From a virus (Duplodnaviria > Heunggongvirae > Uroviricota > Caudoviricetes > Straboviridae), in IMG/VR virus record IMGVR_UViG_638277085_000001, positions 163,399 through 227,398 of that record: a stretch of DNA of 64,000 nucleotides, one strand, 5' to 3'. The position numbers and the translations under genes are program-made. Every line of letters starts with the position of its first letter. Positions within the stretch are counted from its first letter, which is position 1. Positions 18,444 through 18,860 of the stretch are shown piece after piece. The notes beneath the pieces are model-generated. The model was not told the DNA's origin. It made no database searches and saw nothing but the letters and a program-made list of their open reading frames with translations.

Positions 18444-18860
18444 ACCAATATACTCTCGATATTTTAAATGTGCGCTACTTGCACGCCGACTGAGCGAATT
18501 TTAACTCAGCTAGTTTTTGTTTGAGACATCGTCCGCTAAGACTATTCTCTGCATGCCAGAACTTATACTGGCTCTATGTATTCATTTCGGCTAACGCACA
18601 TTTAAAATATTACTCATCTTCAGAGAAGAGACAGAAACGATGAGTCTAGTCTGTTTAATCAATGTTGTTCATCTTCAAGAAGAGGCGAGAACGATGAACT
18701 TAGCTCGCTTAATCAACTGTGTTAATCTTATCAGCTTCTCAGCGAAAGTCAACATCTTTTTCAAATATTTCATCGAGTTGAAAGTTTGTTTTCTGTCTCT
18801 CGACTCGATGAAATACATTCTACATCCTTTTCAGATGAAGTCAACAACTATTTTAACTTT

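What the first reader, a model, noticed from the sequence alone, without database searches (positions are those of the whole stretch)
18600..18860. Tandem roughly 45-bp direct repeats plus inverted matches at the boundary between the tRNA island and the 57A/57B/gene-1 operon
18616..18660 and 18661..18705 are about 78% identical direct repeats (catcttcagagaagagacagaaacgatgag... / catcttcaagaagaggcgagaacgatgaac...). Downstream segments (tttctgtctctcgactcgatgaaatac, ttttcagatgaagtcaac) are reverse-complement matches to parts of the repeats. The only ORF here (18640..18864, plus strand) is probably spurious. Iteron-like direct and inverted repeats of this kind are typical of replication origins, packaging or regulatory protein-binding sites.
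Basis: seen in the sequence. Interest (0 to 1): 0.5.

Follow-up and report, generated by a model that had tools for sequence, protein, structure and literature searches.

The report
Tandem promoters plus repeated RNA pseudoknot
The repeats lie in a non-coding control region of vibriophage KVP40: two back-to-back early promoters followed by two copies of a conserved, previously undescribed 54-nt RNA pseudoknot, read on the opposite strand ahead of a cluster of tRNA-like RNA genes; nothing indicates a replication origin.

Summary
The window is Vibrio phage KVP40. The direct repeat is real (alignment score 26; best of 9,078 background window pairs is 9). Its period is 54/55 bp, not 45, and the copies are 18608-18662 and 18663-18716.

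All neighbouring genes are on the minus strand. Read on that strand, in 14 KVP40-like phages, the region is:
- P1: A-tract, TTGACT, 16 nt, TAGAAT.
- A stable hairpin at the 5' end of the P1 transcript.
- P2: TTGACT, 16 nt, TGnTAAGAT.
- Two 54/55-nt units starting about 2 nt after the predicted P2 start.
- A 150-nt cloverleaf-like RNA, then tRNA-like genes.

The promoter hexamers are invariant, while the P1 spacer is almost free to vary. Each unit has two crossing stems of 5 and 7 bp, an H-type pseudoknot topology. All 201 pair cells are paired, and 8 of 12 pairs show compensatory changes. Both ORFs called here are broken by frameshifts in relatives.

The unit occurs nowhere else in KVP40, T4, Rfam, the plasmid set or IMG/VR.

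Iterons or an origin are not supported. The function of the unit is unknown. I favour a cis-acting leader resembling rRNA-operon leaders (about 0.3). The main rival is a stand-alone RNA decoy resembling type III antitoxins (about 0.2); the anti-CBASS gene acb1 (57B) lies next door.

The parts
18845..18860 (-). A-rich UP-like tract upstream of P1, directly after the stop codon of the 87-aa ORF (19124..18861)
   Evidence: Minus-strand sequence aaaaagttaaaatagttg. Other early-type promoters in the window share the context tttgaaaaagNtgTTGAC. The element was not tested functionally.
18817..18844 (-). Promoter P1: -35 TTGACT (18844..18839), 16-nt spacer, -10 TAGAAT (18822..18817); predicted start near 18810
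   Evidence: 10 of 12 consensus matches. Both hexamers are invariant in 13 phages, only 2 of 16 spacer positions are invariant, and the spacer length is fixed.
18766..18815 (-).
   Evidence: -21 kcal/mol, z = -6.45. 96.6% of cells are paired, with one compensatory change, and three pairs switch between G-C and G-U. Those G-U pairs would be C-A mismatches on the plus strand.
18725..18752 (-). Promoter P2: -35 TTGACT (18752..18747), 16-nt spacer, extended -10 TGaTAAGAT (18733..18725); predicted start near 18718
   Evidence: The -35 box is invariant and 4 of 6 -10 positions are invariant. P1 and P2 form direct repeat D2, 92 bp apart.
18663..18716 (-). Unit A, 54 nt: UUGAUUAA tail 18716..18709; S1 GCGAG 18708..18704 pairs with CUCGC 18689..18685; S2 GUUCAUC 18699..18693 pairs with GAUGAAC 18673..18667; loop 3 CUCUUCUUGAA 18684..18674
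   Evidence: Covariance model hit of 69.8 bits. Stem covariation.
18608..18662 (-). Unit B, 55 nt: tail 18662..18655; S1 ACAGA 18654..18650 pairs with UCUGU 18635..18631; S2 ACUCAUC 18645..18639 pairs with GAUGAGU 18618..18612; loop 3 CUCUUCUCUGAA 18630..18619
   Evidence: Covariance model hit of 81.5 bits. Stem covariation.
18459..18610 (-). RNA X: a 150-nt cloverleaf-like RNA closed by a 19 + 4 bp stem (inverted repeat I1), directly 3' of unit B
   Evidence: RNAalifold predicts 42 pairs, 22 of them with compensatory changes. Its G-U pairs fit only the minus strand. No Rfam match.
18324..18446 (-). First of the tRNA-like genes that carry an insert of about 45 nt; downstream cargo of the P1/P2 transcript
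   Evidence: Annotated tRNA-OTHER in phi-pp2. Alignment A5.
18640..18864 (+). KVP40.0320, a spurious ORF
   Evidence: Glimmer call. Several 1- and 2-nt indels and stop codons in relatives.

Best explanation
The region is the promoter and leader of a minus-strand operon of stable RNAs.

Shown:
- Two tandem sigma-70/T4-early-type promoters, P1 and P2, lie 92 bp apart.
- A stable hairpin sits at the 5' end of the P1 transcript.
- Two copies of a 54/55-nt motif begin about 2 nt after the predicted P2 start. Each has two conserved crossing stems (5 bp and 7 bp, an H-type pseudoknot topology) and invariant loop sequences (AUCGUU, CUCUU, GAAGAU).
- Next come a 150-nt cloverleaf-like RNA and the insert-bearing tRNA-like genes.
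- The region encodes no protein.

Inferred:
- The repeats work as RNA, not as DNA sites.
- My preferred mechanism is a cis-acting leader, as in rRNA operons. There, tandem UP-element promoters are followed by a hairpin and a pyrimidine-rich boxA tract that load host factors onto RNA polymerase. The long untranslated transcript is then completed and processed. Here the S1 hairpin followed by (G)CUCUU(U) would play that part.

Confidence by layer: anatomy about 0.85; RNA-level function about 0.8; the cis-leader mechanism about 0.3.
For: Identity and orientation:
- The window is KVP40, and every flanking gene and tRNA is on the minus strand.

Promoters:
- Hexamers are invariant, spacer length is fixed, and the P1 spacer sequence is almost free to vary (2 of 16 positions invariant; 7 of 16 at P2).
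- Other early-type promoters in the window share the upstream context.
- T4 early promoters are UP/-35/TGn/-10 promoters (PMC2988021).
- The divergent phage D479 has GTTTAC-type promoters at the same places. GTTTAC is the T4 early -35 consensus (PMC1524935).

RNA structure:
- In 17 distinct units, all 201 pair cells are paired and 8 of 12 pairs have double changes. Controls with the partners slid by 1-3 columns give 26-57% pairing.
- The D479 stems have entirely different sequences while the loops are conserved.
- G-U pairs in the units, the hairpin and RNA X fit only the minus strand.
- Each stem is favourable on its own: -2.3 to -8.0 kcal/mol.

Constraint:
- The non-coding stretch is 83% identical in the K566 group, where the adjacent 87-aa ORF is only 64% identical in protein sequence.
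- Both ORFs are broken in relatives.

Support for the cis-leader reading:
- UUGAUUAA begins 2-3 nt after the predicted P2 start in both KVP40 and D479.
- D479 has one unit after each promoter.
- Loop 3 of unit B in F86 and D482 reads UGCUCUUUA. From memory, that equals the first 9 nt of E. coli rrn boxA.
- A long stem closes RNA X. Eleven-nt inverted repeats extend the acceptor stems of the D479 tRNA-like genes. Both resemble processing stems.
Against: - No transcript data exist; the start sites are predictions.
- Nested folding of the unit region is no more stable than shuffled sequence (z = 0.13). The structure therefore rests on covariation alone, and simultaneous formation of both stems is not proven.
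- The boxA resemblance is only the 5-nt CUCUU core in most units.
- The main tRNA array has its own tandem promoters (14738/14655) and no unit. Transcription of the tRNA genes does not generally need the unit.
- KVP40 carries both units after P2 and only a hairpin after P1.
- Phage 1.081.O manages with one unit.
- Tight packing with other stable-RNA modules fits released small RNAs just as well.
Confidence: 0.5

Rival explanations
1. The units are stand-alone small RNAs, cut from the early transcript like the neighbouring tRNA-like RNAs. They act in trans as protein decoys. The most specific version is a mimic of a type III antitoxin that neutralises a host ToxN/CptN/TenpN-type endoribonuclease.
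For: - The repeats are tandem, each with a pseudoknot core flanked by single-stranded A/U-rich tails.
- They are made from strong early promoters.
- Copy number varies between 1 and 2.
- They are packed against other stable-RNA modules with almost no spacer.
- The upstream gene 57B is Acb1, an anti-CBASS protein (Pfam E = 1.7e-46).
- Type III antitoxins are tandem pseudoknot repeats, and phage TE escapes ToxIN by expanding a pseudo-ToxI repeat (PMC5086642).
- tenpI repeats are longer and non-identical (PMC12283969).
Against: - No terminator or toxin gene follows the repeats. The downstream ORFs have no Pfam or PADLOC match.
- No Rfam match.
- No similar repeat was found in plasmids, in one genome per species, or in IMG/VR. 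The genome scan used an exact pattern, so divergent copies would have been missed.
- In D479 the two units are separated by a promoter rather than forming an array.
Confidence: 0.2
2. The repeats are DNA-level sites: iterons of a replication origin, a packaging or regulator-binding site, or an R-loop origin primed from P1/P2.
For: - Direct and inverted repeats lie in a mildly AT-rich non-coding gap (GC 0.35).
- Strong promoters are present, and T4 oriE depends on an early promoter (PMC3016281).
Against: - There are only two long copies, and one relative has a single copy.
- Variation is compensatory within stems. Units A and B in one phage carry different stem sequences, so a DNA-binding protein would need different specificities.
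- There is no strand switch and no skew inflection.
- The site is not syntenic with T4 oriA or oriE.
- An R-loop origin cannot be excluded by sequence.
Confidence: 0.05
3. The units are ligand-sensing pseudoknot riboswitches that control the downstream RNAs.
For: - The size (about 42-nt core), the H-type topology, the invariant loops and the tandem arrangement recall small pseudoknot riboswitches.
- KVP40 carries 7-deazaguanine synthesis genes: folE and exsB/queC and moaA/nifB/pqqE radical-SAM family proteins.
Against: - No match to any Rfam riboswitch, even at E = 10.
- No terminator or ribosome-binding site follows for an expression platform.
- The downstream genes are RNAs.
Confidence: 0.05
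4. The region encodes a small protein: KVP40.0320 on the plus strand or the 47-aa ORF on the minus strand.
For: ORFs of 74 and 47 aa exist in KVP40. One is annotated in GenBank.
Against: Both are broken by 1- and 2-nt indels and stop codons in close relatives. The minus-strand ORF starts inside the P1 -10 box and runs through P2.
Confidence: 0.01

Closest known systems
rRNA operon leader of enterobacteria (tandem P1/P2 with UP elements, then boxB hairpin, boxA, boxC; NusB/NusE antitermination)
   Same: Tandem strong promoters with A-rich upstream tracts. A hairpin followed by a pyrimidine-rich tract close to the transcript start. Downstream genes that are untranslated structured RNAs. Long-range stems that look like RNase III processing sites.
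   Different: The boxA match is only CUCUU in most units and a full UGCUCUUUA only in F86 and D482. The hairpin is part of a pseudoknot. The module is duplicated. No binding data exist. The boxA consensus is cited from memory.
HK022 put RNA (cis-acting, factor-independent antitermination)
   Same: A structured RNA with two helices, about 55-70 nt, encoded just downstream of early promoters. In D479 there is one per promoter.
   Different: put consists of two consecutive stem-loops, not crossing stems. No sequence comparison was run. No terminator that needs overriding was identified.
Type III antitoxin RNAs (ToxI, CptI, TenpI) and the pseudo-ToxI of phage TE
   Same: Tandem direct repeats. Each folds into a pseudoknot with single-stranded tails. 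They are transcribed from one promoter, and there is phage precedent for an RNA decoy.
   Different: Only 1-2 copies, which differ by about 20%. No terminator or toxin gene follows. No sequence similarity to known antitoxins. No host counterpart was found.
T4 RNAC and RNAD (species 1 and 2 stable RNAs)
   Same: Small, conserved non-coding RNAs of unknown function, co-transcribed with the phage tRNA cluster in the syntenic region 3-1-57A-57B...tRNAs (PMC3014915).
   Different: The T4 RNAs lie at the distal end of the cluster and have tRNA-like 3' ends. The unit model scores at most 8.4 bits anywhere in the T4 region.
T4 oriE iterons
   Same: Direct repeats in a non-coding stretch with an early promoter nearby.
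   Different: oriE has a cluster of evenly spaced 12-nt repeats near repEA (PMC3016281). Here there are two 54-nt units whose variation is compensatory base-pairing, and the site is not syntenic.
tmRNA pseudoknot string (PK2-PK3)
   Same: Consecutive H-type pseudoknots joined by A-rich linkers. This is the only recurring Rfam near-hit (9-12.5 bits).
   Different: Far below the gathering score of 47. There is no tRNA-like ends/tag ORF architecture, and ARAGORN finds no tmRNA.

Membership tests
Sigma-70 / T4-early-type promoter | -35 and -10 hexamers close to consensus, 16-18 bp apart | tested here: met
   P1 is TTGACT-16-TAGAAT, 10 of 12 matches. P2 is TTGACT-16-TAAGAT, 9 of 12 matches, with TG upstream.
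Sigma-70 / T4-early-type promoter | Hexamers and spacing conserved while the spacer sequence drifts | tested here: met
   Both -35 boxes and the P1 -10 box are 6 of 6 invariant; the P2 -10 box is 4 of 6. In the spacers, 2 of 16 (P1) and 7 of 16 (P2) positions are invariant, with no indels.
Sigma-70 / T4-early-type promoter | A/T-rich UP element; orientation towards downstream genes | tested here: met
   A-tracts lie upstream of both promoters. All downstream genes are on the same strand.
Sigma-70 / T4-early-type promoter | Mapped transcription start | not testable with these tools
   No transcript data are available.
H-type RNA pseudoknot | Two helices in the order a, b, a', b' | tested here: met
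   S1 (5 bp) and S2 (7 bp) cross in all 17 distinct units.
H-type RNA pseudoknot | Both helices supported by covariation | tested here: met
   100% of cells are paired. 4 of 5 S1 pairs and 4 of 7 S2 pairs show double changes. Slid controls give 26-57% pairing.
H-type RNA pseudoknot | Both helices form at the same time, with sterically feasible loops | tested here: inconclusive
   Loop lengths of 4, 3 and 11-12 nt are compatible by rule of thumb. No pseudoknot energy model or probing was available, so alternating structures are not excluded.
Iteron-type replication origin | Three or more short, evenly spaced direct repeats conserved as sequence | tested here: not met
   There are two 54/55-nt copies; one phage has one copy, and D479 has them split by a promoter. 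Variation is compensatory.
Iteron-type replication origin | Strand switch or skew inflection; synteny with T4 oriA or oriE | tested here: not met
   Genes on both sides are on the minus strand. Cumulative GC skew is essentially flat across the locus and has no inflection there. oriE is near repEA and oriA near soc, neither near 57B/tRNA.
Type III toxin-antitoxin locus | Tandem array of RNA repeats that fold as pseudoknots | tested here: met
   Two non-identical repeats with a pseudoknot topology.
Type III toxin-antitoxin locus | Rho-independent terminator after the array | tested here: not met
   No terminator-like site lies between 18608 and the next RNA gene.
Type III toxin-antitoxin locus | Downstream ToxN/CptN/TenpN-family endoribonuclease gene | tested here: not met
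   The downstream ORFs of 138, 76 and 186 aa have no Pfam or PADLOC match.
Type III toxin-antitoxin locus | A cognate host toxin that the RNA neutralises (needed for an orphan mimic) | not testable with these tools
   Exact-pattern scans of genomes and a blastn search of plasmids found nothing. A covariance-model search of Vibrio genomes was not possible.
rrn-type antitermination leader | boxA consensus (GCUCUUUA) in single-stranded RNA downstream of a hairpin | tested here: inconclusive
   UGCUCUUUA occurs in unit B of F86 and D482. Other units have GCCUCUUC, GUCUCUUC or GUUCUUUA. Only UCUU is invariant.
rrn-type antitermination leader | NusB/NusE binding and read-through of terminators | not testable with these tools
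   This needs biochemistry or genetics.
Any Rfam family | Score at or above the gathering threshold | tested here: not met
   The best matches are tmRNA at 12.5 bits against a threshold of 47, and C/D snoRNA-like noise.
T4 RNAC/RNAD | Sequence and structure homology | tested here: not met
   Model R1 scores at most 8.4 bits across T4 positions 69000-76500.

The most novel reading that the evidence does not exclude
The tandem pseudoknots are a naturally fixed, phage-encoded RNA decoy: an orphan antitoxin-like RNA made from early promoters. It would neutralise a host endoribonuclease or another RNA-binding defence protein. Together with Acb1 (57B), the odd tRNA-like RNAs and the tRNA cluster, it would form an anti-defence island in KVP40-like vibriophages.
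Probability: 0.15. Interest if true: 0.8.

Novelty: new variant of a known kind. Interest (0 to 1): 0.45.

Why it matters
KVP40 is the reference giant T4-like vibriophage. GenBank annotates this stretch as a hypothetical protein, and a review of T4-type phages states that no riboswitch or trans-acting small RNA has been functionally characterised in T4 (PMC3014915).

The analysis replaces a spurious ORF with a testable map: two early promoters, a 5' hairpin, a duplicated pseudoknot motif with strong covariation, and a 150-nt cloverleaf-like RNA. All sit ahead of unusual insert-bearing tRNA-like genes and next to the anti-CBASS gene acb1.

If the motif acts in cis, it would be a phage counterpart of rRNA-operon leaders for stable-RNA operons. 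If it acts in trans, it could be a new RNA-based counter-defence. Either outcome can be tested with a small deletion and a Northern blot.

Tried and rejected
1. Iterons or an origin were rejected on copy number, the covariation pattern, synteny and skew.

2. Coding potential was rejected because of frameshifts and stops in relatives.

3. Four Rfam searches were run on this locus and on K566, and one on the D479 region. They returned only noise: tmRNA at 9-12.5 bits and C/D snoRNA-like hits caused by GAUGA and CUGA strings.

4. Pattern scans for homologues elsewhere:
- Viral contigs gave only VH7D plus chance coding hits.
- Genome contigs with a strict pattern gave one chance hit in an Ignavibacteriaceae coding region.
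All 120 loci were chance matches. That scan was wasted and is not exhaustive.
- A blastn search of plasmids found nothing.
- The search for related loci with 57B in IMG/VR returned only VH7D.

5. The covariance model found no further unit in the whole KVP40 genome or in the T4 tRNA region.

6. The 11-nt complementarity between the hairpin loop and unit B (I4) was considered as an RNA-RNA interaction. It was dropped because it is not maintained in phi-ST2 or K566.

7. A terminator role for the hairpin was rejected because no U-tract follows it.

8. Mini-ORFs inside the units (MNNID*, MSNILNVR*) are not conserved.

9. A k-turn or C/D-box reading of the snoRNA-like hits was rejected because only a single G-A mismatch is possible.

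10. The original KVP40 genome paper (PMC180978) is not held. Whether it lists these promoters could not be checked.

Full report
**Identity and context**

The window matches Vibrio phage KVP40 (AY283928.2) at 100% identity; record position = window position + 163398. Every gene around the finding is on the minus strand:
- gene 3
- gene 1 (20477..19839)
- a 57A-like ORF
- 57B (19563..19108)
- an 87-aa ORF (19124..18861)
- the finding region
- tRNA-like genes and the tRNA cluster, down to about 9700

This order is syntenic with T4: 3-1-57A-57B-ipI-...-tRNAs-rnaD-rnaC. GenBank places a Glimmer ORF, KVP40.0320, on the plus strand at 18640-18864.

**Checking the observation**

The direct repeat is real. 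Tandem Repeats Finder reports 18614-18729, period 54, 2.1 copies, 80% matches. Gapped alignment of 18608-18662 against 18663-18716 scores 26. For 9,078 adjacent window pairs elsewhere the mean is -7.9, sd 4.2 and maximum 9. The stated 45-bp period and coordinates are wrong: only 15 of 45 positions match there, and self-identity peaks at shifts of 54 and 55.

The inverted matches:
- One is a strong hairpin at 18766-18815 (-21 kcal/mol, z = -6.45).
- The other is the -35 box and non-conserved spacer of a promoter on the other strand.

**Comparative material**

Fifty phage records carry this stretch at 78-100% identity. I aligned 13 representatives. I then added D479, a more distant relative found through the 87-aa ORF at 55% protein identity. 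In the K566 group the non-coding stretch is 83% identical, while the adjacent ORF is only 64% identical in protein sequence. The non-coding DNA is therefore under constraint.

**Promoters (shown by sequence and conservation; start sites inferred)**

Read on the minus strand, the 92-bp repeat is two promoters:
- P1: A-tract, TTGACT (18844..18839), 16 nt, TAGAAT (18822..18817).
- P2: A-tract, TTGACT (18752..18747), 16 nt, TGaTAAGAT (to 18725).

Across 13 phages the P1 hexamers and both -35 boxes are invariant and the spacers have no indels. Only 2 of 16 P1 spacer positions are invariant. That is the expected footprint of sigma-70 recognition.

Other early-type promoters in the window share the context tttgaaaaagNtgTTGAC. 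They include further tandem pairs at 14738/14655 and 32575/32490. D479 has GTTTAC-type boxes, the T4 early -35 consensus (PMC1524935), at the equivalent places. T4 early promoters are described as UP/-35/TGn/-10 promoters (PMC2988021). No late-promoter motif lies nearby.

**The repeated unit is a folded RNA (shown by covariation)**

On the minus strand each unit reads, 5' to 3':
- UUGAUUAA
- S1 5' arm (5 nt)
- loop 1, C-N-A/U-R (4 nt; 5 nt in unit A of QD01/VS1)
- S2 5' arm (7 nt)
- GUU
- S1 3' arm
- loop 3, CUCUU...GAA (11-12 nt)
- S2 3' arm
- an A-rich tail

The arm order a, b, a', b' is an H-type pseudoknot topology.

In 17 distinct units from 14 phages, all 201 pair cells are standard pairs, and 8 of 12 pairs show changes on both sides. 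No shuffle reached the observed covariation score. Sliding the partners by 1-3 columns gives 26-57% pairing.

Examples of the stem pairs:

| Stem | Pairings seen |
|---|---|
| S1 | GCGAG/CUCGC, GCGAA/UUCGC, ACAGA/UCUGU, GCAGA/UCUGC, GCGGU/ACCGC, GCAGC/GCUGU |
| S2 | GUUCAUC/GAUGAAC, ACUCAUC/GAUGAGU, UCUUAUC/GAUAAGA, UUACAUC/GAUGUAA, UCAUAUC/GAUAUGA |

The loop sequences AUCGUU, UCUU and GAAGAU are invariant.

G-U pairs in the units, in the hairpin (three pairs that switch between G-C and G-U) and in RNA X would be C-A mismatches on the plus strand. The functional strand is therefore the minus strand, in agreement with the promoters.

Each stem is favourable on its own, at -2.3 to -8.0 kcal/mol. 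Nested folding of the region is not more stable than shuffled sequence (z = 0.13). The case for structure therefore rests on covariation, and simultaneous formation of both stems is inferred, not shown.

**Not coding**

KVP40.0320 and the 47-aa minus-strand ORF are both interrupted by 1- and 2-nt indels and stop codons in close relatives.

**Layout across phages**

- In KVP40-like phages the order is P1, hairpin, P2, unit A, unit B, RNA X, tRNA-like genes.
- UUGAUUAA of unit A begins 2 nt after the predicted P2 start at 18718.
- Phage 1.081.O lacks exactly one unit.
- D479 has P1, unit, P2, unit, then the tRNA-like genes directly. UUGAUUAA again lies 2-3 nt after the predicted P2 start, and there is no RNA X.

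RNA X (18459-18610) has 42 predicted pairs, 22 of them compensatory. It forms a four-way junction closed by a 19 + 4 bp stem. VH7D carries a 69-nt deletion inside it.

**Distribution**

A covariance model of the unit finds only the two copies in the window, at 81.5 and 69.8 bits; the next best hit is 12.5 bits. It finds nothing else in the rest of the KVP40 genome and nothing in the T4 tRNA region. Pattern scans of IMG/VR, of one genome per species and of metagenomes, and a blastn search of plasmids, gave only KVP40-type phages or chance hits. Rfam has no match. No paper in the searched library links KVP40 to such an RNA.

**Mechanism**

Firm conclusions:
- This is a promoter and leader region.
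- The repeats act as RNA.

Beyond that, the evidence does not decide between two readings.

*(a) Cis-acting leader, my preference at about 0.3.* The design parallels rRNA operons:
- tandem UP-element promoters
- a hairpin followed by a pyrimidine tract near the 5' end
- untranslated structured cargo downstream
- long processing-type stems

Loop 3 reads UGCUCUUUA in unit B of F86 and D482. From memory, that is the core of rrn boxA. In most units only CUCUU matches. Against this reading, the main tRNA array has its own tandem promoters and no unit.

*(b) Released small RNAs acting as decoys, about 0.2.* The units resemble type III antitoxins in being tandem pseudoknots with single-stranded tails (PMC5086642), and tenpI repeats are long and non-identical (PMC12283969). 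Acb1 (57B; Pfam E = 1.7e-46) lies next door. Against this reading, the terminator and toxin gene that define a type III locus are absent, and no host counterpart was found.

*DNA-level roles, about 0.05.* Copy number, the covariation pattern, the lack of a strand switch or skew inflection and the lack of synteny with T4 oriA or oriE all argue against them. An R-loop origin primed from P1/P2 cannot be excluded by sequence.

**Verdict**

The iteron and origin interpretation is not supported, apart from the correct calls that the region is regulatory and the ORF spurious.

The promoters are ordinary for a T4-type phage. The duplicated pseudoknot motif is well supported, lineage-restricted and, as far as these searches show, undescribed. 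Interest is moderate (0.45). It would rise sharply if the RNA proves to be a counter-defence decoy.

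Noticed in passing
window 15906-16018, 17572-17692, 17703-17815, 17934-18056, 18324-18446 (all minus strand); L140 3002-3407: These tRNA-like genes are 113-124 nt long and carry an insert of about 45 nt in the anticodon region. Rfam's tRNA model scores three of them at 50-55 bits, but ARAGORN misses them, and GenBank calls them tRNA-Pseudo. The inserts share a 5-6 bp hairpin capped by a GNRA-type loop (CUGAYAAG), followed by CAGCAA. The same insert is present in phage D479. They may be mini-introns or a functional domain. 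T4 rnaC and rnaD, which have tRNA-like 3' ends, sit in the syntenic cluster.
   Followed up: partly
window 18459-18610 (-): RNA X is a 150-nt cloverleaf-like RNA closed by a 19 + 4 bp stem. 22 of its 42 pairs show compensatory changes, and it has no Rfam match. It is partly deleted in VH7D (69 nt lost between GGCGTGCA direct repeats) and absent from D479.
   Followed up: partly
window 19108-19563 (-): Gene 57B, annotated 'RNA ligase' in many records, matches Pfam Acb1 (anti-CBASS nuclease) at E = 1.7e-46. It lies immediately upstream of the promoter and leader region.
   Followed up: partly
window 14627-14738 (-) and 32460-32575 (-): There are two further tandem pairs of early-type promoters. 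The pair at 14738/14655 is an 83-bp duplication with identical spacers (GTTTAC...TACAAT), lies just 5' of tRNA-Leu and drives the main tRNA array with no pseudoknot unit. Tandem early promoters seem to be a habit of this phage.
   Followed up: partly
window 15357-15377 (-) and 9444-9466 (-): Two strong intrinsic terminators lie on the minus strand, so the tRNA island is split into several transcription units. Another early-type promoter sits at 17090..17062, right after the tRNA at 17111-17187.
   Followed up: no
L140 2990-3290 (phage D479): The insert-bearing tRNA-like genes of D479 are flanked by 11-nt inverted repeats that extend the acceptor stem to about 18 bp. They look like RNase III-type processing stems.
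   Followed up: no
L009 (phage nt-1), hairpin loop equivalent to window ~18790-18797: Phage nt-1 has a 6-nt duplication (ACAGAA) in the loop of the P1 hairpin. The loop tolerates changes in length while the stem is kept.
   Followed up: no
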